From Escherichia phage Mangalyan, in sequence record OR449013: DNA of 64,000 nucleotides; one strand, 5' to 3'. This document shows, one piece after another, positions 27,258 to 63,120 of this stretch. Below the pieces are notes generated by a model. It was not told the origin of the DNA and searched no databases. It worked only from the letters and a program-made list of their open reading frames with translations. How positions within the stretch are numbered: position 1 is the first letter of the stretch; the number at the start of each line of letters is the position of its first letter. The position numbers and the translations under genes are program-made.

Positions 27258-28379
27258 TTAGATAAAACGCTTAAACATAGAAGGTGATGAGATTGATGGA
27301 ATCACACAAGGAAGTGCTACCTCCTCTTTCTCCAGGAAATTAATCGCAGAAGCTACACAGTCGGCCCAGTCGTCTTTTCTGTTAAATGTTGATCTTTCCC
27401 CGTTGAATTTTTCAAGTTCAGTCAGAAATGCTTCCAAAGTATCAGGATGGAAACTGGATTTTACAATCCTCACCATTCCTTGTTGGGCAAGATTGGCAAA
27501 AGGTGAGAACCTTGTCAGTTTAGATTTGTTGGAAGGCATTGGGTCTTCTTCAACCCTAAACCCTTCGGCGAGCAAGGATCTGGAGGAGGTTAAGAACTCA
27601 CTCTTACCTGCCTGACCGGGGTCCACAGAGAATACGATTATACAATCATCACCATCAAACTGCGCCTGTTTCCTGATGATCACATCTCGTTCACCAGCCT
27701 TTTTACAAAACTTACCTTCCAGACCTGTGGAATACCTCCCGTCATCCACGTTCTCAGGACAATAATCACCGGACAGGTAATAAAAGCCGTCACTATCTTT
27801 ACTTACCTTAACACTGGCGGTAAAGTCAGGAAATTTATTACCGGAAGTTCTCTCGGTTCCTGCCTTATCCCATGCTCTGCAAGATACTGATCCAAGGGGT
27901 ACTCTATCGGCATCACGAAGGAAAGATCTTTGAAAATAGTTTGCACCCTCAGGCTTTGCAAACCAGTTACCATGGAGAAGCTGAGCTTTTTCCAGCTCTG
28001 GTAGACCTTCGAGGAAAGCAAGGTATTCTGGGTTGTCTCTCAAACAGACAGGATTATCGAATATTGTTGCGCCTATGAACGAGAATGACAACGGTCTTGG
28101 CTTGATCTCTACACCCAGTCCGTTAACCGTGGTGTATTTCTCTATCAACTCTTCCTTAGAGTCTCCCCAAATAAATTCACCGTCGCGTCGGATAAAATAT
28201 CTTTTCTTACCGCATTTCTCAGGATCTGGATACCCTTCATCGTCCAACCACCATCTAACCAGTTTGGCAAGCATGTGTTCTGAATCGGGGTTACAGCTGA
28301 TAACCATTCTTGATGGATACTTTGACTGAGATCGCAGACGAGACATCAGATAGTCTATCTGCTCCCATTCGAATTGTGT
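27258..28379 (-). CDS. terminase large subunit, exon 2 (nuclease domain)
   Basis: Frame continues terminase reading after the predicted intron; Asp-rich nuclease-domain motifs. Exon 5' boundary (28379) is predicted, not proven. Confidence 0.75.
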   Translation of the reverse strand, partial: TQFEWEQIDYLMSRLRSQSKYPSRMVISCNPDSEHMLAKLVRWWLDDEGYPDPEKCGKKRYFIRRDGEFIWGDSKEELIEKYTTVNGLGVEIKPRPLSFSFIGATIFDNPVCLRDNPEYLAFLEGLPELEKAQLLHGNWFAKPEGANYFQRSFLRDADRVPLGSVSCRAWDKAGTERTSGNKFPDFTASVKVSKDSDGFYYLSGDYCPENVDDGRYSTGLEGKFCKKAGERDVIIRKQAQFDGDDCIIVFSVDPGQAGKSEFLTSSRSLLAEGFRVEEDPMPSNKSKLTRFSPFANLAQQGMVRIVKSSFHPDTLEAFLTELEKFNGERSTFNRKDDWADCVASAINFLEKEEVALPCVIPSISSPSMFKRFI

Positions 28380-28698
28380 CGTTTATGTTCGGGCAAGGTC
28401 GCTAGTCTTGCCCCGCCATTTTCAGGCAGCTGCATGTCTCCATGCAGACCAGACTATATCTTATAAGCGACAAAAACCGCTTACCCTCCCGTTTCGAATC
28501 GCTTGATTCTACGTCTCTCGACTAGTCGTTGAACGTTCATCCTCTCGGATGCTTCGCTGCGGATTATCTAAATTAACACACTGTTACCATACCTTCGATC
28601 TCTCTTCGAAGCCTCTATAATGTTACCATGACAGGTTGGTGGTGTCAATAATAAAGATTTCCCCGCAATTAGGGAGGTTTTACGAGAGCTACAAATTA
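28380..28698 (-). ncRNA. group I intron (ORF-less) in terminase large subunit gene
   Basis: Minus-strand P (AATTGCGGGGAAA, 28656-28671), Q (AATCCGCAGC, 28551-28565), R (GTTCAACGACTAGTC, 28520-28534), S (AAGATATAGTCTGG, 28449-28462); P1 pairing exon GAGGGU with intron GCUCUC; in-frame TAA right after exon 1. Confidence 0.8.
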
Positions 28699-29124
28699 AC
28701 CCTCATCGAAGCAAACCATGGTGTACTCAAGCCCTTGGTGGTTAAGCTTATCTTGTACATACTCCATGTGGCAGTATTTTACAACAGCCCCCTTTTTGCT
28801 TCTATCCCACTTGCCAGTGTTCGGATCAAACCGTGGAAAAATGAACTTATGATCCTTCTCTCTGAACTTTGGCTTAATGTTTTCAGGCAGATCACTATAA
28901 ATAGCTACTGCTTTAGGCCATAGTCCACCCTCACCTTCCAACTGTGGGGTTGTTCTTCGGAACATAACCACAGAGCTGTGGGGGTCATCAATAATTTTAA
29001 GCGGCATCAACTGCAAGAGGAACGACTTGCCAGACCCAGCTGCACCGCCGATTACCAAAATATCTGCATCGTTTTCGAGGATCATCTTCTGCTTTTCAGA
29101 ACACGGTCCGTAAATCTTAGACAT
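28699..29124 (-). CDS. terminase large subunit, exon 1 (ATPase domain)
   Basis: Walker A GGAAGSGKS and Walker B VCFDEG; ORF terminates in intron. Confidence 0.8.
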
Positions 29125-29911: not shown

Positions 29912-30181
29912 TTATCGAGGCACTCGGTGGATGATTCTAACAGTAACTGCATTTTCATTCATCAAGTATGCATCTACATCTCTGTAAATATAAAACTTCT
30001 GCTCACTATCAACAACACAAGCTACCGCCCCTTCAGAGTTGTCTTCAAAAAAGACCACCACTGCATCGCAGCTGAGTTCATGATATGACTCTCGAAGATT
30101 TACAGCCAGAGGATTGAAATCGTCACGAAAATCTACGGTATGGGTTGGATTTACACGCTCTACAATTTTAAGTGTATACAT
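29912..30181 (-). CDS. hypothetical protein
   Basis: 89-aa ORF. Confidence 0.4.
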   Translation of the reverse strand: MYTLKIVERVNPTHTVDFRDDFNPLAVNLRESYHELSCDAVVVFFEDNSEGAVACVVDSEQKFYIYRDVDAYLMNENAVTVRIIHRVPR

Positions 30182-30227
30182 TTTAAAGGTTCCTTTTGTT
30201 TATATATGTTTAAAGTATAACTGAAAG

Positions 30228-30304
30228 TGGTCTCCACGGAGTGATTCGAACACTCGACCTCCTGATCCCAAATCAGGCGCTCTACCAAGCTGAGCTACGC
30301 GGAG
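30228..30304 (-). tRNA. tRNA-Pro (anticodon TGG)
   Basis: Cloverleaf folded by hand on minus strand: acceptor CTCCGCG/CGTGGAG, anticodon loop TTTGGGA, T-loop GTTCGAATC, encoded CCA. Confidence 0.8.
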
Positions 30305-30315
30305 TATTTACTATT

Positions 30316-30390
30316 TGGTGGCCCTGGGTGGAATTGAACCACCGTCTGGCGATTATGAGTCGCTTGCTTGAACCTTCCAGCTACAGGGCC
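30316..30390 (-). tRNA. tRNA-Met/fMet/Ile2 (anticodon CAT)
   Basis: Acceptor GGCCCTG/CAGGGCC, anticodon loop CTCATAA, T-loop TTCAATT, CCA encoded. Confidence 0.8.
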
Positions 30391-30391
30391 T

Positions 30392-30467
30392 TGGTGCTAA
30401 TGGCAGGACTTGAACCTGCAACCTATTGATTACAAATCAATTGCACTACCAATTGTGCTACATCAGC
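30392..30467 (-). tRNA. tRNA-Thr (anticodon TGT)
   Basis: Acceptor GCTGATG/CATTAGC, anticodon stem ATTGA/TCAAT with loop TTTGTAA, T-loop TTCAAGT, CCA encoded. Confidence 0.8.
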
Positions 30468-30472
30468 AAAAA

Positions 30473-30571
30473 GGTGCTAGGTGATGGAATCGAACCATCT
30501 ATGTATTCAACGACTACCTCGTCTATTTTCAGGATTAAAAATCCTCGCCCTTGCCAAAGGGCTTACCTAGC
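30473..30571 (-). ncRNA. atypical 99-nt tRNA-like gene (Lys-type UUU anticodon loop, ~30-nt variable region)
   Basis: Acceptor GCTAGGT/ACCTAGC, D-arm GCCC-TTTGGCAA-GGGC, anticodon loop TTTTTAA, canonical T-arm GATGG-TTCGATT-CCATC, but ~30 nt lie between anticodon stem and T-stem. Confidence 0.45.
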
Positions 30572-30669
30572 TCAGTATGTTGACCATGTTGCTAGTCGGC
30601 GATGACGACTGTAACATTTGATAATCCGGTTCTGCTTCCGGCTTTCGCTTAATTACAAGGTCAACAATG

Positions 30670-30760
30670 TGGCGGAGAGTAATGGAATCGAACCATCATC
30701 GAGTCATCCTCAATGGGACGGTTTTCAAGACCGCTTGAGCACCATTGCTCCCTACTCTCC
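30670..30760 (-). tRNA. tRNA-Ser (anticodon TGA), class II
   Basis: Acceptor GGAGAGT/ACTCTCC, anticodon loop CTTGAAA, long variable arm, T-loop GGTTCGATTCC, CCA encoded. Confidence 0.8.
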
Positions 30761-30874
30761 TTTATAAATTATACTGATAATGACACTGATTTTCGAGCAG
30801 TTAGTGACTAGTATAAACGACGATAAATATCAATGCCATTATCTGTATTATTTATGCATCTAAAAATATAAATT

Positions 30875-30961
30875 TGGTGGGGAGTGGTGGAGTCGAACCA
30901 CCCGAGTCGCAATGACAATAGATTTACAGTCTACACCGCTACCTCTACGGGATAACTCCCC
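30875..30961 (-). tRNA. tRNA-Tyr (anticodon GTA), class II
   Basis: Acceptor GGGGAGT/ACTCCCC, anticodon stem GTAGA/TCTAT with loop CTGTAAA, long variable arm, T-loop GGTTCGACTCC. Confidence 0.8.
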
Positions 30962-30965
30962 AATT

Positions 30966-31040
30966 TGGCACCCCGTACTGGACTCGAACCAGTGTCAACG
31001 GCTTAGAAGGCCGCTGCTTTATCCACTAAGCTAACAGGGC
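30966..31040 (-). tRNA. tRNA-Arg (anticodon TCT)
   Basis: Acceptor GCCCTGT/ACGGGGT, anticodon stem GCGGC/GCCGT with loop CTTCTAA, T-loop GGTTCGAGTCC. Confidence 0.8.
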
Positions 31041-31098
31041 ACTGGGTGGCTTTCTTTTACACCTTAGCCGCCAGAAAAGGTGGGAGACCATGTTTACA

Positions 31099-31127
31099 AT
31101 ATTACACTGTTAAGCAAAGTTTGTCAA
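31099..31127 (-). promoter_or_regulatory. sigma70-like promoter upstream of tRNA cluster (TTGACA-17-TAATAT)
   Basis: Minus-strand TTGACA (31127-31122) and TAATAT (31104-31099), ~55 nt upstream of tRNA-Arg. Confidence 0.5.
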
Positions 31128-31136
31128 GAAAATATT

Positions 31137-31475
31137 TTAGCTATTGCTAACAGGCTGTATTTCTGTAGTAAATGGCATAAAAGGTGCTGGTTTTTCAGCC
31201 TCTTCTACTACCACCTCTTCCTCTTCACCAAACATCTCATCATATTCTTCCTGCATTCGGTCTGCCTTATCAAGAACATACTCTGCAATGCTTTGACGAA
31301 TATTTTGTTTGGTTTTCGGGTCCAACATCAGCTCTCTTAAAACTTTGTGAGCTTCTGGAACCATCGCTATAAAAGATTCCTTCATATCAAGGATGTTCTT
31401 CTCTAGCTGAATGGCGTTGGACTCCTCTTTCAGAGGTCTGCCTCTACGGCGACGCTTTTTAGTTGTATCCGCCAT
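31137..31475 (-). CDS. hypothetical basic DNA-binding protein (possible small terminase subunit or regulator)
   Basis: ATG at 31475 with GGAGGAAA SD (track ORF extends spuriously to 31595); N-terminal KKRRRRGRP basic tract, acidic C-terminus. Confidence 0.4.
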   Translation of the reverse strand: MADTTKKRRRRGRPLKEESNAIQLEKNILDMKESFIAMVPEAHKVLRELMLDPKTKQNIRQSIAEYVLDKADRMQEEYDEMFGEEEEVVVEEAEKPAPFMPFTTEIQPVSNS

Positions 31476-33977: not shown

Positions 33978-34532
33978 TTACTCCCTACTGTCAATATCAA
34001 AACTCATTGCAATACGGTATGCCTCCTCTAATGGTAAGAGTCTCCCCCACACATCCCAACCGACATCAAGCTGCCTGCCAAACAACTGTTGTGTGGTTCC
34101 GTGAGCATGACCGAACAGTTGGACTGATCCGTGAGGCTTTCTGTTCCACTTTGCAAACTGGTAATGGCTCATACAGATCAAATTCTTGTTGTGGCGAAGC
34201 TCGTAATAATCTACAACCTCATGACCGAACTCTTTCATAATTCTGACAGTCGTCCTTGTGTCATGGTTGCCACGAACAAGAATAATATGTCCGTTCAACA
34301 TATTTAGAATATCTGGAAGTAAGTTGTTGATATTCTTATCATTAGTGCACGCAATATCTCCCAAGTGGAACACAGTGTCTGCAGGTGACACAACAGAGTT
34401 CCACTTGGCGATGATTCCCGCATTCATACTGTCAAGATTGTGATCATACTGAGATCTGTGTTTTTGACATGAATCAAACTCCATGACCCGCTGATGGAGA
34501 AAGTGTGTGTCGCTTGTTACAAAGTATTTCAT
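33978..34532 (-). CDS. calcineurin-like metallophosphoesterase (putative polynucleotide 3'-phosphatase)
   Basis: ATG at 34532 with GAGGA SD (track ORF starts upstream); motifs SDTHF, GDI, GNHD; starts 7 nt after the kinase stop. Confidence 0.6.
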   Translation of the reverse strand: MKYFVTSDTHFLHQRVMEFDSCQKHRSQYDHNLDSMNAGIIAKWNSVVSPADTVFHLGDIACTNDKNINNLLPDILNMLNGHIILVRGNHDTRTTVRIMKEFGHEVVDYYELRHNKNLICMSHYQFAKWNRKPHGSVQLFGHAHGTTQQLFGRQLDVGWDVWGRLLPLEEAYRIAMSFDIDSRE

Positions 34533-34539
34533 ACATTCC

Positions 34540-34950
34540 TCATTTAAGTTTAATGCAGTTTTTAAGCTGGCGTTCCATACGATCCACAACCTTGTCTGGA
34601 ACATCATGAATGCTTTTATTACCGTGGCGGTTTTCAACCACGATCACGGTATAACTATACCCATGACTGATTGCCATGTCAACATATTCCTGCACATGTT
34701 TTTCTTTTGTAAACGTATTACTTACCACGATACGGTCGTATCCCATACGCATCATATCTTCTACGTTATCTTTGCACCATTTTGCTGCGAGTGTTACTTT
34801 ACTTGCATCCCAGTTGTAATTGCCGTCATCGTCATACCAGAACATGTCGTTCTCAAAATGTGGATACAGACCCTCTAAAGATAGCGCATTTGCCAGTGTT
34901 GATTTGCCAGACCCTGGTAGACCACGCACGATATATAGCATTTTAGACAT
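34540..34950 (-). CDS. polynucleotide 5'-kinase-like P-loop protein
   Basis: ATG at 34950 with GGAGGG SD; P-loop GLPGSGKST resembles the T4 Pnk kinase domain. Confidence 0.6.
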   Translation of the reverse strand: MSKMLYIVRGLPGSGKSTLANALSLEGLYPHFENDMFWYDDDGNYNWDASKVTLAAKWCKDNVEDMMRMGYDRIVVSNTFTKEKHVQEYVDMAISHGYSYTVIVVENRHGNKSIHDVPDKVVDRMERQLKNCIKLK

Positions 34951-34978
34951 AGTGACCCTCCGTTTTAATTTCAACGGT

Positions 34979-35007
34979 AGTATACCTGACTGTTTTGTTA
35001 ATTTCAA
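34979..35007 (-). promoter_or_regulatory. sigma70-like promoter (TTGAAA-17-TATACT) for kinase/phosphatase operon
   Basis: Minus-strand elements in the divergent intergenic region. Confidence 0.45.
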
Positions 35008-35071
35008 GTGTTGACACTAGGTTATTTGTGTGGCAGGATAGACTGACAAAATGACAAATGAGGAACGTATA

Positions 35072-35986
35072 ATGAAGTATTTTAATGCAGACGACCTAGT
35101 TGACAAAGGTCTTGTAACCAGTAGGTATTACCCAGATCTCGGGCTAAAGATCTATAAATATGCCAGAAAAGTATTCTACAACAATCTGTGGCATTTGTCT
35201 CCGCGTTTACTGGAGTGCCGAGGTATTGTTGTTGGCAATGAGGGGAATGTTGTGGCATGGCCTTTCACAAAAGTATTCAACTTAGGAGAAAACTCCACCA
35301 ACCTACCGGACAGTAAACTTGTTACTGCGGTAGAGAAAAAGAACGGATTCCTCGGTGTGGTATCATCTCATAAAGGTGACCTATTGTTCTCAACAACCGG
35401 GTCTCTTGATTCTCCATATTGTAACCTTGCAAAGGAAACCATCCAAGAGCAATGTGGTAATTTAGATCTTATCAAGAAGGTTATGGGCAATGAAAACATG
35501 ACATTCATGTTTGAAATTTGTCACCCTTCAGATCCGCATATTGTTCAAGAAGACCATGGCGCATATTTGATAGGTTGCAGATATAATGATTCTGGAATAA
35601 TGCTACCAGAAGCAGCTTTAGATGGGATTGCCAAATACCTTGGTGCAAAACGTCCTCACACTGTGCGTGAAATTCCGTTCAGCTATGCAAAAGAGTTAGC
35701 TGCAGAAACAAGAGGTGAAGGATATATGATTCGTAAGCCTTACTACCCTTATGATCTGCAGTTGAAGATCAAGTCTCCATACTATCTGGCACGAAAGGCC
35801 GTAATGAGGGGTAAAGCTTGGAAGATTTGGGATGATGATATCTTTAAACGTGTTGACGAAGAGTTTTACGGCATGGTAAACTTCATTCGTAACAACTACA
35901 CAGAGGATGTATGGAACTGCCTCCTGGAGCAGGAACGCCGTGAGATACTTGACTGCTATTTCCACAACGAGGACTATATGCAATGA
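35072..35986 (+). CDS. putative RNA ligase (nucleotidyltransferase)
   Basis: Motif I EKKNGF (K-x-N-G), motif IV EGYMIR, motif V LKIKSP; second ATG 35072 preferred (GAGG SD) over track start 35051. Confidence 0.55.
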   Translation: MKYFNADDLVDKGLVTSRYYPDLGLKIYKYARKVFYNNLWHLSPRLLECRGIVVGNEGNVVAWPFTKVFNLGENSTNLPDSKLVTAVEKKNGFLGVVSSHKGDLLFSTTGSLDSPYCNLAKETIQEQCGNLDLIKKVMGNENMTFMFEICHPSDPHIVQEDHGAYLIGCRYNDSGIMLPEAALDGIAKYLGAKRPHTVREIPFSYAKELAAETRGEGYMIRKPYYPYDLQLKIKSPYYLARKAVMRGKAWKIWDDDIFKRVDEEFYGMVNFIRNNYTEDVWNCLLEQERREILDCYFHNEDYMQ

Positions 35987-36333
35987 AGAAGTTGATTGTG
36001 TGGCTGGATGACTTGAGAGATCCGTCAAATTACGGGCTCCAAGACGCTGTTTGGCTAAAGAATTCCTCCGAGTTTATAGATTTTATTAACGATAATAGAA
36101 AGCTCTACAGACGCGTTTCTGAGTGGCACATGGACAACGACCTTGGAGAGTTGTTCGAAGGGTACGATTGCCTATCTATGTTGGAGGAAAAATTTGTATT
36201 TGGTAAGCCCCCTGTAGTTGACAACGTGAAGATTTTCGTGCATACTTCTAACCCATCAGCGGCTCGTAAATTCATGCTTGCAGCTGACTCGTTTAAAAAG
36301 TTTGGAATAGAGATTAAACAAAACATCTACTGA
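35983..36333 (+). CDS. hypothetical protein coupled to RNA ligase and Sir2-like genes
   Basis: 116-aa ORF whose ATG overlaps the ligase stop. Confidence 0.45.
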   Translation: MKKLIVWLDDLRDPSNYGLQDAVWLKNSSEFIDFINDNRKLYRRVSEWHMDNDLGELFEGYDCLSMLEEKFVFGKPPVVDNVKIFVHTSNPSAARKFMLAADSFKKFGIEIKQNIY

Positions 36334-36341
36334 GGACACTT

Positions 36342-37103
36342 ATGCGACGACTGATTATTATCTCCGGTGCTGGTTTGAGCGCTGAATCTGGTATTCCCAC
36401 TTTCCGATCTGGTAGCACTGCAATGTGGGAGAATTTCAGCATCGATGAGGTGTGCAACATCCACACCTTTGCCAAGAACTACTACAAGGTGCATGACTTT
36501 TACAATGCACGTCGTGTAGCTCTAGGCGGTGTTGAGCCTAACCTTGCACATCTTCGGATCGCTGAGTGGTATTCCCGCTGGTCTGGTCGTGTGATCAACC
36601 TTACCACCAATGTAGATGATTTGCTGGAGCGTGCTGGTGTAAAACATGAAGATATTTTACATGTTCACGGGTATTTGCCAGAAATAGTCTATGAGGACGA
36701 TGAAGGAAGTGACGTCATTAAGGACATTGGATACTCTGAGGTAGATGCAGGAAAGTATACCTGGGTTAAACCTAATGTGGTGTTCTTCGGAGAAGTAGCT
36801 CCGAAGTATACAGACATGTATGACCTGTTGACTTCTCTTACAAGCAATGATATGGTTATCCTTGTAGGGTGTTCCAACACAGTTATCAATTTTAACTGGG
36901 AGCTATTCCCTGCCTGCAATAAGGGCACCAAACTGCTGATCGTTAACAAATACGACTCACAGCATCTAGAGGAGAATGGCATTTCACGTAGTGATATTTA
37001 CCAGTACGAGGATCGCGGCATCCCGGTTTGGTTTAACGGGGCGGTTGACGCTTTCTCTGATAAAACATTCATTGAGACCGTAGAAAACTTTATGGAACTT
37101 TAA
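36342..37103 (+). CDS. Sir2-family NAD-dependent protein (sirtuin-like, lacks Zn-ribbon cysteines)
   Basis: Rossmann motif ISGAGLSAESGIPTFR, TTNVDDL, catalytic HVHG, VVFFGE; no CxxC...CxxC zinc module. Confidence 0.7.
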   Translation: MRRLIIISGAGLSAESGIPTFRSGSTAMWENFSIDEVCNIHTFAKNYYKVHDFYNARRVALGGVEPNLAHLRIAEWYSRWSGRVINLTTNVDDLLERAGVKHEDILHVHGYLPEIVYEDDEGSDVIKDIGYSEVDAGKYTWVKPNVVFFGEVAPKYTDMYDLLTSLTSNDMVILVGCSNTVINFNWELFPACNKGTKLLIVNKYDSQHLEENGISRSDIYQYEDRGIPVWFNGAVDAFSDKTFIETVENFMEL

Positions 37104-60928: not shown

Positions 60929-61978
60929 ATGAATTTAACACCTCGCAGCACCATGGTACACGGCATGAAAGAAAAACAGAACGGTTTCGAACCTATGAGT
61001 AATAAAATGTTTGGTATGCCGGGGGGTATTATGGAAACATATAGCTACCCAACACCTGTTGTTGACCACGTTCTTTATATCGACGATTTGGAAGACTTAC
61101 AAGATCATATGTCTCGTCTGCAGACGATCCGTATGGCTCAGCCGGAAGAAAGCATTCGGGTGATCATCAATAGCCCAGGGGGCTGCGTGCACATTGCAAT
61201 GGCTTATTTGCAGGCATTCCGCGAGTCTCAGGCAAGCGTTGTTGCACACGCTGAAGGGATGTGCTGCTCGGCAGGAACAATCTTATGGCTGGGCTGCAAA
61301 GAACGAACTGTGGCTCCGGACACAGAATTTATGTTCCACTACTATCAAGGTGGCACCTATGGTAACGGTGTGAACATGAATACCCAGATCAACTACTGGA
61401 AGAAACGTTTTGAACGCCTGATCGAAAAATACTACGGTGGGGTGTTAACAGAAGATGAGATCGCATCCATCACAGCTGGCGGTGAAGTGTGGTTAGATGG
61501 AGAAGAACTGGCATCTAGAACTGGTGCTATCATTCTGGACGATGAAAACATTCAGCGCATTCAGAATGGACAGAAACCGAAAAAGCTTTTGGCAAAAAGT
61601 GATGAAGAAGGTGTGCTAGGCGAAGCAGGCCTGCCAGAGATTCACCAATGCACATCTCTGGACGAGCTGGTTCATGCTGTTGAGTCTGCAAAAGCAAATG
61701 GTATGAAAGATGATGTTCACACTGTGTTCCTGAATCTGCAGATGGAAAGTGGCGAGACCGTCCGGATCGCCCTGGGTGAAATTACTTCAGAAGATCTGCA
61801 GCGATTCTCTGTCGTCGAACTTCAGGATATTCTGTCTCAATTGAAGACTACTCTGAACGGCGGTGAAGAGGTTAAGGTGAAAGACAAGACCCGCAAGCGT
61901 CTGATGGACAATATCATTAAAACAGCAAAAGAGCTCAATGAAAAAATCCTGGGTGCAGGAATTGTCGAAGAAGCTTAA
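60929..61978 (+). CDS. ClpP-like serine protease (S14 family) with C-terminal extension
   Basis: INSPGGCV, catalytic-Ser context MCCSAGT and His context MFHYY match the ClpP family; ~130-aa helical C-terminal extension. Confidence 0.6.
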   Translation: MNLTPRSTMVHGMKEKQNGFEPMSNKMFGMPGGIMETYSYPTPVVDHVLYIDDLEDLQDHMSRLQTIRMAQPEESIRVIINSPGGCVHIAMAYLQAFRESQASVVAHAEGMCCSAGTILWLGCKERTVAPDTEFMFHYYQGGTYGNGVNMNTQINYWKKRFERLIEKYYGGVLTEDEIASITAGGEVWLDGEELASRTGAIILDDENIQRIQNGQKPKKLLAKSDEEGVLGEAGLPEIHQCTSLDELVHAVESAKANGMKDDVHTVFLNLQMESGETVRIALGEITSEDLQRFSVVELQDILSQLKTTLNGGEEVKVKDKTRKRLMDNIIKTAKELNEKILGAGIVEEA

Positions 61979-61991
61979 ACATTAATTCTAA

Positions 61992-62013
61992 AGCCCTCTT
62001 CGGAGGGCTTTTA
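61992..62013 (+). terminator. rho-independent terminator
   Basis: AGCCCTC-TTCG-GAGGGCT followed by TTTTAT. Confidence 0.6.
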
Positions 62014-62029
62014 TGATCTGGAGATTTGC

Positions 62030-62563
62030 ATGACTTGTGCTAGAAAACCTGATGAACAACGTAACGCCTACGATGAGTATGTGACACCGGAGTGGTGTGC
62101 AGAAGGGCTGTATGACCTTATTCCGTTCCCAGAAGACTGGACCTACTTAGAGCCTTGCAGGAATAGTGCCTCAGGTGTGTTCTACTCCCGTATGCCGTTA
62201 GGATCTGCATGGGGAGAAATACAAGAAGGTGTTGACTATCTGAATACAGAATACAACCATGTTGACTGTATTATCACCAACCCACCATACAGCCTGGCTC
62301 GTGAGTTTGTAGACAAGGCGTTGAAAGATGCTGACGTAGTTATTATGCTTTTGCGTCTTAATTTTCTGGAAAGCAAAGCCAGATTTGAATGGTGGCTTGA
62401 TAATGCACCTACTACTGTGATCACAATATCTAAGCGTCCATCATTTCAATCAAACGGCAGAACTGACGGGCAAGCATATGCATATTTTGTGTGGGATAAG
62501 AAAAACCGTTTAGACTTGCCGCCGTTTATGTGGTTGGCACCCCCAGAGGTAGACCTGAAATGA
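62030..62563 (+). CDS. small N6-adenine DNA methyltransferase (phage Dam-like)
   Basis: Catalytic motif IITNPPYS; N-terminal YDEYVTPEW; 177 aa. Confidence 0.6.
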   Translation: MTCARKPDEQRNAYDEYVTPEWCAEGLYDLIPFPEDWTYLEPCRNSASGVFYSRMPLGSAWGEIQEGVDYLNTEYNHVDCIITNPPYSLAREFVDKALKDADVVIMLLRLNFLESKARFEWWLDNAPTTVITISKRPSFQSNGRTDGQAYAYFVWDKKNRLDLPPFMWLAPPEVDLK

Positions 62564-62844
62564 AAATGAGTGCTAAGGACAAATTACACCAGCTAGCGCT
62601 AAAACGCCCTGTAACGCTCCCTGACGAGCTTAACTCCATTTATGATGCGATTGTAGGGGAGATACAAAATAAAGCGTTAGCAGGCTTTCTGGGGTGCGGA
62701 TTTTCGATAAATCTACCCTCGCATCTCTCAGATTACTTCCCGCACATTGTTGGAGATTTAAGGGCAGGAGGTCTGCAGGTAGATGTTGTTGGCATCTCCC
62801 CAGAGAAAAATAATACGGTTGCCTACTTGACAGTAACCTGGTAG
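62560..62844 (+). CDS. hypothetical protein
   Basis: ATG 62560 overlapping the methyltransferase stop (ATGA) with GAGGT SD. Confidence 0.35.
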   Translation: MKMSAKDKLHQLALKRPVTLPDELNSIYDAIVGEIQNKALAGFLGCGFSINLPSHLSDYFPHIVGDLRAGGLQVDVVGISPEKNNTVAYLTVTW

Positions 62845-62880
62845 TTGTGTATTGTTGTTTTCAACAAGAGGGGGTCATTT

Positions 62881-63120
62881 ATGTACAAGTCATTTTCAAT
62901 CTACTCAAGACAGGCGAAACACTACACAGAGATCCTGATCACTCAGAAAAAATCTGTGGAAGGTGAGTGGGAATATCACCATAAAATGTTGCGTCCAGAC
63001 TGGGTTTTTGATAGACTTATTGCTATGATCCCTCTCGGAGAAGTATACCCTCTGACAGCCCATCGCGATGCTTGGGATTTAATTGATTACATAGATTCAT
63101 TTAAGGAGCCTAGATTATGA
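62881..63120 (+). CDS. hypothetical protein
   Basis: ATG 62881 with AGAGGGGG SD. Confidence 0.35.
   Translation: MYKSFSIYSRQAKHYTEILITQKKSVEGEWEYHHKMLRPDWVFDRLIAMIPLGEVYPLTAHRDAWDLIDYIDSFKEPRL

What the first reader, a model, noticed from the sequence alone, without database searches (positions are those of the whole stretch)
30473..30571. Atypical 99-nt tRNA-like gene with Lys-type anticodon loop and oversized variable region
Within the tRNA cluster, this element has a perfect 7-bp acceptor stem, a normal D-arm and a canonical T-arm, and an anticodon stem-loop with loop TTTTTAA (anticodon UUU, Lys-like). About 30 nt, including a small hairpin GACGA-GGTAG-TCGTT, separate the anticodon stem from the T-stem, far longer than any class II variable arm. 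It could be a modified tRNA that evades host anticodon nucleases (tRNA-Lys is the classic PrrC target), a tRNA carrying an insertion, or a tRNA-derived regulatory RNA.
Basis: partly seen in the sequence, partly recalled or inferred. Interest (0 to 1): 0.6.

Follow-up and report, generated by a model that had tools for sequence, protein, structure and literature searches.

The report
Conserved oversized tRNA-like RNA in rV5-type phages
This 97-base gene in a phage tRNA cluster folds like a tRNA with a 30-base extra region, is conserved across a whole phage subfamily, and is probably a tRNA look-alike of unknown function, not an ordinary lysine tRNA.

Summary
On the minus strand (30571..30475) lies a 97-nt cloverleaf inside the tRNA operon of an rV5-like phage. 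It has a 7-bp acceptor stem, a D arm, a TTCGATT T arm, a 4-bp stem with loop UUUUUAA, and 30 nt including a hairpin before the T stem.

It is not a one-off insertion. Single-copy homologues occur in five Vequintavirinae genera and in metagenomic relatives. All 22 scored pairs hold in all 23 sequences, and 10 show compensatory changes. One of these is the tertiary elbow pair, G19:C56 to U19:A56.

The junction sequences are invariant but the "anticodon" loop is not. It is UUUUUAA only in rV5-like phages and differs elsewhere (UUUAUAA, NAUCAAR without U33, 8-nt CCNNCCAG, 6-nt GUGAUA). Relatives with large tRNA sets also carry a normal tRNA-Lys(UUU). In this window it is the only gene of the operon without an encoded CCA.

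I read it as a conserved, tRNA-shaped, probably non-decoding RNA. My best guess is a mimic or decoy for tRNA-binding or tRNA-cleaving factors. A nuclease-resistant tRNA-Lys in rV5 remains a live rival. Function is untested.

The parts
30475..30571 (-). Whole tRNA-like RNA 'X', 97 nt from the first acceptor base to discriminator A73. The CC at 30474-30473 follows, and then U, so CCA is not encoded.
   Evidence: ARAGORN; Rfam tRNA 37.5 bits; fold z = -4.2; own covariance model R1 scores it 103 bits against at most 25.6 bits for ordinary tRNAs.
30565..30571 (-). Acceptor stem 5' strand, GCUAGGU. It pairs with 30476-30482.
   Evidence: 7 of 7 pairs. Across 23 homologues, 3 of the 7 pairs show compensatory changes and 100% of cells are paired.
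30547..30564 (-). A8 A9 followed by the D arm GCCCUU-UGGC-AAGGGC. This is a 4-bp stem extendable to 6 bp, with G18 G19 in the loop.
   Evidence: Pairs 11:24, 12:23 and 13:22 covary. U14, U15, A20 and A21 are invariant. G19 covaries with C56 of the T loop (G:C in 19 sequences, U:A in 4).
30530..30546 (-). 'Anticodon' arm: G, AGGA, UUUUUAA, UCCU, G. The stem has 4 bp flanked by an invariant G...G. The loop reads UUU at positions 34-36, with U33 and A37.
   Evidence: The stem pair 27:42 covaries (A-U 12, G-C 10). The loop sequence and length are not conserved in homologues.
30524..30529 (-). Junction J1, AAAAUA. The AAAA is conserved throughout the family (offset by one base in L134).
   Evidence: Invariant columns in alignment A4.
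30509..30523 (-). Extra arm: hairpin GACGA-GGUAG-UCGUU, 5 bp including a closing G.U.
   Evidence: A-U changes to G-C in Avunavirus. In other genera the arm is replaced by unrelated hairpins of 15-29 nt. Mean z is -1.75 against shuffles over 18 variants.
30500..30508 (-). Junction J2, GAAUACAUA. The AUACAUA is invariant in the family, and its last A could be the position-48 partner of U15.
   Evidence: Invariant columns A66-A72 in A4. The 15:48 pairing is an inference.
30483..30499 (-). T arm GAUGG-UUCGAUU-CCAUC.
   Evidence: Two of its 5 pairs covary. Loop C56 changes to A together with G19 to U.
30476..30482 (-). Acceptor stem 3' strand, ACCUAGC.
31099..31127 (-). Sigma-70-type promoter-like site (TTGACA-17-TAATAT) upstream of tRNA-Arg. 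It is the likely promoter of the operon Arg-Tyr-Ser-X-Thr-Ile2/Met-Pro.
   Evidence: Consensus scan. The same place is annotated P(tRNA) in rV5 RefSeq. That X is co-transcribed from it is inferred.

Best explanation
X is a conserved, single-copy, tRNA-shaped RNA of the phage subfamily Vequintavirinae. It is not an ordinary tRNA-Lys.

Inferred biogenesis: X is transcribed with the phage tRNAs from the early tRNA promoter. RNase P cuts its 5' end, the RNase P cut that releases tRNA-Thr frees its 3' side, and exonucleases plus the CCA-adding enzyme finish it. It folds into an L shape with a normal acceptor/T-arm elbow.

Its short 'anticodon' arm and its extra arm are evolutionarily free, while the junction core (G...G, AAAA, AUACAUA) is fixed.

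Most likely it works as a tRNA mimic. It would occupy a host or phage factor that recognises tRNA shape, most plausibly a tRNA-directed defence nuclease, as a decoy or competitor. It would not decode codons. In rV5-like phages its anticodon arm imitates the tRNA-Lys(UUU) loop, a frequent nuclease target.

Shown: the structure, its conservation, and the non-conservation of the loop. Inferred: processing, stability, and the decoy role.
For: Structure:
- Cloverleaf with an extra hairpin, z = -4.2.
- 23 distinct homologues keep all 22 scored pairs in 506 of 506 cells. Ten pairs show compensatory change, against 34-50% pairing in slid controls.
- The tertiary pair G19:C56 switches to U19:A56 in GAP31, 4MG, Ro1 and KB57.
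- G.U pairs occur only on this strand.

Family:
- Vequintavirus, Avunavirus, Seunavirus, Mydovirus, Henunavirus and metagenomic contigs of about 140-150 kb, with synteny next to tRNA-Thr(UGU).
- One copy per genome at 83-113 bits; ordinary tRNAs score at most 25.6 bits.
- Nothing above 21 bits in 915 kb of unrelated viral DNA.
- None in 185,579 bacterial and archaeal genomes or in E. coli genomes.

Against decoding:
- Loops of 6, 7 or 8 nt with no U33 in most genera.
- A separate canonical tRNA-Lys(UUU) in L134, L149 and L136.
- Avunavirus has UAU with discriminator U or C.
- X is the only gene in the window and in the Avunavirus operon without an encoded CCA.
- Variable region of 30-40 nt with invariant linkers.

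Context:
- An RNA-repair cassette lies 3.5-5.5 kb away: metallophosphoesterase, P-loop kinase, T4 Rnl1-type ligase and a cREC domain protein. This argues that these phages face tRNA-cleaving defences.
- Authors of PMC12409363 raise competition by viral tRNAs as a possible way to inhibit AriB.
Against: - No expression, processing or binding data exist, and no partner protein is identified.
- In the rV5 genus the loop is a textbook anticodon loop (U33, UUU, A37, A38) and the discriminator is A73. These are the LysRS identity elements known from E. coli (own knowledge). rV5 also lacks a canonical tRNA-Lys.
- In other genera U73-CCA is kept and the loop triplets are UCC/GCC or UCA. This pattern hints that the 3' end, and perhaps charging, matters.
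- A decoy would be expected to copy a host tRNA loop in every genus, and most loops do not resemble one.
- Phage V18 has lost X, together with Tyr and Ser, and is viable, so X is dispensable at least in the laboratory.
Confidence: 0.45

Rival explanations
1. In rV5-like phages X is a working, aminoacylated tRNA-Lys(UUU). Its unusual body (different anticodon stem, giant variable region) makes it resistant to tRNA-Lys-specific nucleases such as PrrC, RloC, PARIS AriB or Schlafen, so it rescues AAA decoding.
For: - 7-nt loop UUUUUAA with U33, UUU, A37 and A38, and discriminator A73.
- Rfam tRNA score above the gathering threshold.
- Several GenBank records call it tRNA-Lys.
- rV5 has only six other tRNAs and no canonical Lys.
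- tRNA-Thr(UGU), another PARIS target, is the adjacent gene (PMC12409363).
- T5 tRNA-Lys is a precedent for a nuclease-resistant viral tRNA (PMC11464382, PMC12409363).
- An RNA-repair cassette is nearby.
- The few polymorphisms within the rV5 clade spare the loop.
Against: - The anticodon is not conserved among orthologues. The sister genus has UAU with U or C73, which fits neither LysRS nor IleRS.
- Other genera have loops of 6 or 8 nt or lack U33.
- Only 4 Watson-Crick pairs in the anticodon stem, flanked by G.G.
- A8/U14 in place of U8/A14.
- A 30-nt variable region in what should be a class I tRNA.
- It is the only operon member without an encoded CCA.
- LysRS is a class II enzyme that approaches from the variable-loop side, so a large arm may clash (own knowledge, not tested).
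Confidence: 0.25
2. X is a chargeable special-purpose tRNA whose identity lies in the acceptor end and body. It would be either an unconventional decoder (UGA suppressor in the UCA clades, as annotated 'tRNA-sup(tca)' in Hena1, or a quadruplet or frameshift reader in the 8-nt-loop clades) or an aminoacyl carrier for a non-ribosomal reaction.
For: - U73-CCA is strictly kept outside the rV5 and Avunavirus genera, as in the phages' own tRNA-Gly and tRNA-Cys.
- G1:C72 and C2:G71 are nearly invariant.
- Loop triplets are UCC/GCC (Gly-like) or UCA (next to Cys GCA; opal) followed by A37.
- NAUCAAR differs from the tRNA-Sec loop CUUCAAA only at position 33 (own knowledge of the Sec loop).
- The tRNA-Sec model is the best Rfam match in Hena1, at 39 bits, which is below threshold.
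- L149 and L142 also carry a tRNA(CUA).
Against: - A33 or C33 in place of U33, and loop lengths of 6 to 8 nt.
- No sign of TGA recoding in the flanking genes; the longest ORFs do not change when TGA is read through.
- Position 3:70 varies.
- The CCA and discriminator decay in rV5 and Avunavirus while the body stays conserved, which argues that the conserved function does not need charging.
- Class II tRNAs generally score on the Sec model.
Confidence: 0.15
3. X is a decaying tRNA pseudogene or a mere processing spacer with no function of its own.
For: - It is not annotated in the rV5 RefSeq record.
- ARAGORN cannot assign it, and misses it in the other genera.
- CCA is lost in rV5 and Avunavirus.
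- It is lost in V18.
Against: - It is retained as a single copy across five genera, with 100% pairing and 10 compensated pairs including a tertiary pair.
- The single-stranded junctions are invariant.
- Polymorphisms in the rV5 clade preserve the structure.
- A pseudogene would not keep this.
Confidence: 0.05

Closest known systems
Class II (long-variable-arm) tRNAs: Leu, Ser, bacterial Tyr, Sec
   Same: Cloverleaf with a base-paired extra arm between the anticodon and T arms, a canonical T loop, and a G18G19/T-loop elbow. It lies in a tRNA operon. The D arm can be drawn as a 6-bp stem with a 4-nt loop, as in tRNA-Sec.
   Different: - The extra arm is set off by conserved linkers of 6 and 9 nt, giving a variable region of 30-40 nt (from own knowledge, class II tRNAs have roughly 13-21 nt).
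- A8/U14 in place of U8/A14.
- A 4-bp anticodon stem with G.G.
- The anticodon is not Leu, Ser, Tyr or Sec, and is not conserved.
- The acceptor and T stems are 7/5 bp, not the 8/5 of tRNA-Sec.
- Rfam tRNA-Sec stays below threshold: 39, 23.7 and 23.2 bits against 47.
Phage T5 tRNA-Lys(UUU) that resists PARIS AriB (PMC11464382, PMC12409363)
   Same: A phage-encoded RNA with a UUU anticodon loop, in a phage that also carries tRNA-Thr(UGU). The anticodon stem sequence differs from that of host tRNA-Lys.
   Different: T5 tRNA-Lys is a normal-sized tRNA with two point changes. X has a 30-nt variable region, a shortened anticodon stem and no encoded CCA. Its UUU is not shared by its homologues.
Phage T4 stable RNAs species 1 and 2 (rnaC, rnaD)
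   Same: Small RNAs of unknown function encoded inside a phage tRNA cluster. By sequence, rnaC ends in a T-arm-like GGGTTCGAATCCC hairpin.
   Different: No homology: model R1 does not match them. They are longer (139 and 119 nt) and are not a cloverleaf plus one arm.
Non-translational tRNA-like RNAs: B. cereus tRNA-Other (PMC3399842) and the tRNA-like domain of YrlA Y RNAs (Rfam RF02553)
   Same: tRNA-shaped RNAs that do not act in decoding and work through proteins or regulation. tRNA-finding programs label them 'Other'.
   Different: Unrelated sequence and host. X has free acceptor ends like a real tRNA, whereas YrlA closes through a Ro-binding stem. The only YrlA match in the window is weak (25 bits against 69) and lies on the neighbouring tRNAs, not on X.
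allo-tRNAs and Sec-like tRNA-Cys with non-standard cloverleaves
   Same: Long-arm tRNAs whose anticodon varies freely because identity lies elsewhere; some carry UCA and U73.
   Different: Those have 8/4 or 9/3 acceptor/T geometry and are bacterial. X is 7/5, occurs only in phages, and has non-canonical loop lengths.

Membership tests
Canonical decoding tRNA (tRNA-Lys UUU) | 7-bp acceptor stem, T arm with a T-Psi-C loop, and a D loop G18G19 forming the elbow | tested here: met
   The G19:C56 tertiary pair covaries across the family.
Canonical decoding tRNA (tRNA-Lys UUU) | 5-bp anticodon stem with a 7-nt loop carrying U33 and a purine at 37, kept in orthologues | tested here: not met
   The window has 4 Watson-Crick pairs plus G.G. 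Its loop is canonical (UUUUUAA), but orthologues have 6-, 7- and 8-nt loops, and most have A33 or C33.
Canonical decoding tRNA (tRNA-Lys UUU) | Anticodon and discriminator conserved among orthologues | tested here: not met
   UUU/A73 in rV5; UAU with U or C73 in Avunavirus; UCA, UCC or GCC with U73 elsewhere.
Canonical decoding tRNA (tRNA-Lys UUU) | Short (4-5 nt) variable loop of class I tRNAs | tested here: not met
   30 nt between the anticodon stem and the T stem.
Canonical decoding tRNA (tRNA-Lys UUU) | 3' CCA end, encoded as in the other tRNAs of the same operon | tested here: not met
   Arg, Tyr, Ser, Thr, Ile2/Met and Pro all encode CCA; X reads A-CC-U. Post-transcriptional addition is possible but was not tested.
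Canonical decoding tRNA (tRNA-Lys UUU) | Aminoacylation by LysRS and use on the ribosome | not testable with these tools
   Needs acid-gel or periodate assays, or tRNA-seq of charged species.
Rfam tRNA RF00005 | Score at or above the gathering threshold of 29 bits | tested here: met
   37.5 bits in the window. Homologues in other genera do not reach it. The bona fide class II tRNA-Tyr scores only 29.9 bits, so this score discriminates poorly.
tRNA-Sec (RF01852) | 13-bp acceptor plus T helix (8/5), UCA anticodon, G73, long extra arm, 6-bp D stem | tested here: not met
   7/5 helices, UUU, A73. The best family score is 39 bits against 47. The two extra D-stem pairs never vary, so they are neither supported nor refuted.
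Vequintavirinae tRNA-like family 'X' (defined here) | Cloverleaf with A8, an invariant G...G around a 4-bp arm, G-AAAA and AUACAUA junctions flanking an extra hairpin, single copy next to tRNA-Thr(UGU) | tested here: met
   103 bits on model R1; all invariant columns present; adjacent to tRNA-Thr(UGU).
T4 rnaC/rnaD stable RNAs | Sequence or structure homology | tested here: not met
   R1 gives no hit on L158 1409-1672.
Self-cleaving ribozyme or intron inside a tRNA | Match to a known ribozyme or intron model, or a canonical tRNA left after removing the insert | tested here: not met
   No Rfam match other than tRNA at E <= 1. CUGAAAA lacks the hammerhead G8. Removing the insert leaves the non-canonical anticodon arm. 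A real group I intron is found elsewhere in the window.

The most novel reading that the evidence does not exclude
X defines a new class of phage tRNA mimics. It would be a stable, tRNA-processed, L-shaped RNA with an enlarged, conserved junction core and rapidly evolving tips, made by a whole subfamily of virulent Enterobacterales phages. Its role would be to bind and neutralise a tRNA-recognising host factor, such as an anticodon-arm nuclease of a defence system. Alternatively it would carry an amino acid for a non-ribosomal purpose. Either way it would be an RNA-based anti-defence or hijacking device, not a translation adaptor.
Probability: 0.3. Interest if true: 0.8.

Novelty: new variant of a known kind. 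Interest (0 to 1): 0.55.

Why it matters
Phage tRNAs are now seen as counter-measures against tRNA-cleaving bacterial immunity, but only ordinary tRNAs with point changes have been characterised.

A subfamily-wide tRNA look-alike with a fixed core and free "anticodon" and extra arms would be a different solution: a mimic or decoy, not a replacement. It sits in well-studied, genetically tractable E. coli phages (rV5 and BASEL Bas49 and Bas55), so the idea is directly testable.

There is also a practical side. Databases label this gene inconsistently as tRNA-Lys, tRNA-OTHER, tRNA-Stop(tta), tRNA-sup(tca), a hypothetical protein, or nothing. This distorts counts of phage tRNAs and of suppressor tRNAs.

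Tried and rejected
1. Recent insertion into a tRNA-Lys. Rejected: the architecture is conserved in five genera.
2. Intron or ribozyme in the variable region. No Rfam hit, no hammerhead core, and removing the insert does not yield a canonical tRNA.
3. tRNA-Sec or opal suppressor with recoding. 7/5 geometry, A33, below-threshold Sec scores, and no sign of TGA read-through in the flanking ORFs.
4. Homology to T4 rnaC/rnaD. None.
5. Derivation from, or similarity to, a host tRNA or a prophage copy. No blastn match in 5,426 E. coli genomes and no motif match in GTDB genomes.
6. Protein-coding reading. A + strand ORF at 30426-30605 overlaps X, and some records annotate a CDS there. The family length varies by non-multiples of 3, and the compensatory and G.U pattern is RNA-like.
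7. Kissing interaction between the 'anticodon' loop and the extra-arm loop. UCCA/UGGA in PVP-SE1 and GAP31 and GCCA/UGGC in 4MG look compensatory, but the idea fails in Ro1, KB57 and the other clades. Left as inconclusive.
8. Loop-E-type pairing of the two junctions. The bases next to the arm vary, while the invariant bases are those next to the core, so this is not supported.
9. A first motif scan (TTTGGCAAGGNCGAGG) was too loose and returned about 120 chance loci. These were reused as a negative control.
10. Literature. No paper found on this element.

Full report
WHAT IS THERE

The window is an rV5-like Vequintavirus. Positions 30100-31200 are 99.5% identical to Escherichia phage V5 at 61848-62948.

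The finding lies on the minus strand inside a tRNA operon: Arg(UCU), Tyr(GUA), Ser(UGA), X, Thr(UGU), Ile2/Met(CAU), Pro(UGG). The operon follows a sigma-70-type promoter-like site at 31127..31099.

Rfam's tRNA model aligns it end to end at 37.5 bits against a threshold of 29, with a 26-nt insertion in the variable region and loop UUUUUAA. The thermodynamic fold is a cloverleaf plus one extra hairpin, with z = -4.2.

Three refinements apply:
- The anticodon stem has only four Watson-Crick pairs bracketed by G and G. Alternatively it has five pairs with a 5-nt loop.
- Positions 8 and 14 are A and U, where canonical tRNAs have U and A.
- X is the only gene of the operon that does not encode CCA (A-CC-U); all six neighbours do.

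IT IS A FAMILY, NOT AN ACCIDENT

BLAST and motif scans recovered homologues from these sources:
- about 120 rV5-like genomes;
- Avunavirus (Av-05, 18-1-2);
- Seunavirus (PVP-SE1, NINP13076, GE_vB_MG, GAP31, 4MG);
- Mydovirus (Ro1, KB57, Mydo);
- Henunavirus (Hena1) and Erwinia phage pEp_SNUABM_01;
- metagenomic contigs, most of them about 140-150 kb.

No match was found in 185,579 bacterial and archaeal genomes or in E. coli genomes.

A covariance model built from 23 distinct sequences separates the family cleanly. Members score 83-113 bits, with one copy per genome. Every ordinary tRNA scores at most 25.6 bits. In 915 kb of unrelated viral DNA nothing exceeds 21 bits.

X sits next to tRNA-Thr(UGU) in every genus examined. 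Outside rV5 the order is Thr-(tRNA)-X-...-Leu(UAA)-Arg(UCU)-Cys.

THE tRNA FOLD IS UNDER SELECTION

On the 23-sequence alignment all 22 scored pairs are formed in all 506 cells. Ten pairs show changes on both sides. Sliding the partners gives only 34-50% pairing.

The most telling pair is tertiary. In GAP31, 4MG, Ro1 and KB57 the D loop reads UGUC where the others read UGGC, and the T loop reads UUAGAUU where the others read UUCGAUU. The elbow pair G19:C56 has therefore become U19:A56. This supports a genuine L-shaped fold.

The few polymorphisms within the rV5 clade fall in stems and preserve pairing. G.U pairs exist only on this strand, so selection acts on the RNA.

The extra arm is a hairpin in every member, but its sequence and length (15-29 nt) differ between clades. 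Compensatory changes occur within clades, and the mean z is -1.75 against shuffles. One clade keeps a conserved 12-nt loop, GAAYUAACAGUA, on a weak stem.

The single-stranded junctions are the opposite. G-AAAA after the anticodon arm is kept in every member (one base later in L134), and AUACAUA before the T stem is invariant.

THE 'ANTICODON' IS NOT CONSERVED

Loop sequences by clade:
- rV5 genus: UUUUUAA.
- Avunavirus: UUUAUAA.
- Henunavirus and several metagenomic clades: CAUCAAA, UAUCAAA or AAUCAAG, with A33 where U33 is expected.
- Seunavirus and Mydovirus: mostly 8-nt loops (CCAUCCAG, CCAGCCAG, CCCUCCAG, CCCUCAAG); GE_vB_MG has a 7-nt CCAUCAG.
- L139: 6-nt GUGAUA.

Only U34 and A37 are near-constant.

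Relatives with 14-25 tRNAs carry a separate, canonical tRNA-Lys(UUU) besides X. ARAGORN misses X in all other genera, and Rfam does not reach threshold there.

The discriminator is U, followed by an encoded CCA, in most genera. This matches the neighbouring tRNAs, including the phages' own tRNA-Gly and tRNA-Cys. It is A-CC-U in rV5 and U or C followed by ACA in Avunavirus. In the lineage of this window the 3' end is therefore drifting while the body remains constrained.

INTERPRETATION

The simplest reading is that the conserved function resides in the tRNA shape and the enlarged junction core, not in codon reading. I propose that X is matured like a tRNA and acts as a tRNA mimic. The most plausible role is as a competitor or decoy for a tRNA-recognising factor such as a defence nuclease.

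Supporting context is indirect. The window carries an RNA-repair cassette 3.5-5.5 kb away, consisting of a calcineurin-type phosphoesterase, a P-loop kinase, a T4 Rnl1-type ligase and a cyclic-phosphate 'cREC' domain protein. This is the kind of tool kit T4 uses against the tRNA-Lys nuclease PrrC (established knowledge). The ligase is widespread in the subfamily. Recent work shows that tRNA-Lys(UUU) and tRNA-Thr(UGU) are targets of PARIS AriB, and that viral tRNAs rescue infection and might also compete (PMC11464382, PMC12409363).

No paper describing this element was found.

RIVALS

Working tRNA-Lys in rV5. The loop is a perfect Lys anticodon loop and the discriminator is A73, which are the E. 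coli LysRS identity elements (own knowledge), and rV5 has no other tRNA-Lys. X may therefore have been co-opted there as a nuclease-resistant tRNA-Lys. I give this 0.25. Against it stand the sister genus (UAU with U or C73), the 4-bp stem, the 30-nt variable region and the missing CCA.

Special chargeable tRNA. This rests on the kept U73-CCA and on Gly-like (UCC, GCC) or UCA triplets in other genera. Candidate roles are opal suppressor, quadruplet reader or non-ribosomal aminoacyl carrier. I give this 0.15. There is no sign of TGA recoding.

Pseudogene. This is disfavoured by the covariation (0.05). Phage V18 has nonetheless lost X, Tyr and Ser through one deletion and is viable.

COMPARISON WITH KNOWN KINDS, AND NOVELTY

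X works like, and is built like, a class II tRNA. It fails several defining features of a decoding tRNA when judged across its family (see the membership table). It is not tRNA-Sec, not tmRNA, not YrlA, and not homologous to the T4 species 1 and 2 RNAs.

I classify it as a new variant of a known kind: a tRNA-like RNA. GenBank records label it inconsistently:
- nothing in the rV5 RefSeq record;
- tRNA-Lys in BASEL phages;
- tRNA-OTHER Asp|Gly in Murica;
- tRNA-???(atcc) in slur16;
- tRNA-Stop(tta) in SophiaRose;
- tRNA-sup(tca) in Hena1;
- a CDS in NINP13076 and PMBT16.

VERDICT

X is a real, conserved, structurally unusual tRNA-like RNA whose function is unknown and is testable in tractable phages. 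Interest is 0.55.

Noticed in passing
window 28430-28708 (-): Group I catalytic intron (Rfam RF00028, 83.8 bits) inside the terminase large-subunit region. rV5 RefSeq annotates that gene as joined from three pieces, and an ORF of 362 aa (27258-28346, -) lies between the exons.
   Followed up: partly
window 33978-37103: RNA-repair-type cassette: calcineurin-like phosphoesterase (33978-34637, -), P-loop kinase AAA_33 (34540-35007, -), T4 Rnl1-type RNA ligase (35051-35986, +), cyclic-phosphate processing receiver domain protein (35983-36333, +), then a Sir2-family protein (36342-37103, +).
   Followed up: partly
window 30572-30669 (-): The 98-nt spacer between tRNA-Ser and X folds into a closed multi-branch structure: a long-range stem UUGUUGACC/GGUCAACA with two inner hairpins (z = -2.6). 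It is present in rV5-like phages. In Avunavirus, Seunavirus, Mydovirus and Henunavirus X follows a tRNA directly. No Rfam match.
   Followed up: partly
window 30761-30874 (-): The 114-nt AT-rich spacer between tRNA-Tyr and tRNA-Ser forms a long imperfect hairpin (z = -4.45) and contains a promoter-like site, TCGAAA-17-TATAAT (30796..30768).
   Followed up: no
L007 (Escherichia phage V18) about 951-1042: A natural deletion fuses the 5' part of tRNA-Tyr to the 3' part of X (from the extra arm's 3' strand onward). It removes tRNA-Ser and the 5' two-thirds of X. The phage is viable without the three genes.
   Followed up: partly
L149 2791-2865 and L142 7862-7934: These metagenomic Vequintavirinae-like contigs carry a tRNA with anticodon CUA, which is amber-suppressor-like and is labelled 'Pyl' by ARAGORN.
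   Followed up: no
L141 2536-2640: Immediately after X lies another odd tRNA-like sequence. It has an acceptor-like closing stem, two GGUUCGAUUCC-type T-arm hairpins, and a 3' CCA.
   Followed up: no
L153 683-873, L154 640-830, L004 1603-1921: A spacer of about 190 nt between X and tRNA-Leu(UAA) is conserved among Seunavirus phages. It begins with a tRNA-like GCATTAGCTCAG. It has no Rfam match and only weak predicted structure (z = -1.4).
   Followed up: partly
search results: Eighteen 'Campylobacter phage' GenBank records (MG0656xx; the one opened, A147, is marked UNVERIFIED) are 98-100% identical to rV5-like E. coli phages over this locus. This suggests mislabelled hosts or contamination.
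   Followed up: no
L155 (Raoultella phage Ro1) 130-522: An HNH endonuclease gene is inserted between tRNA-Thr and X in the tRNA cluster.
   Followed up: no
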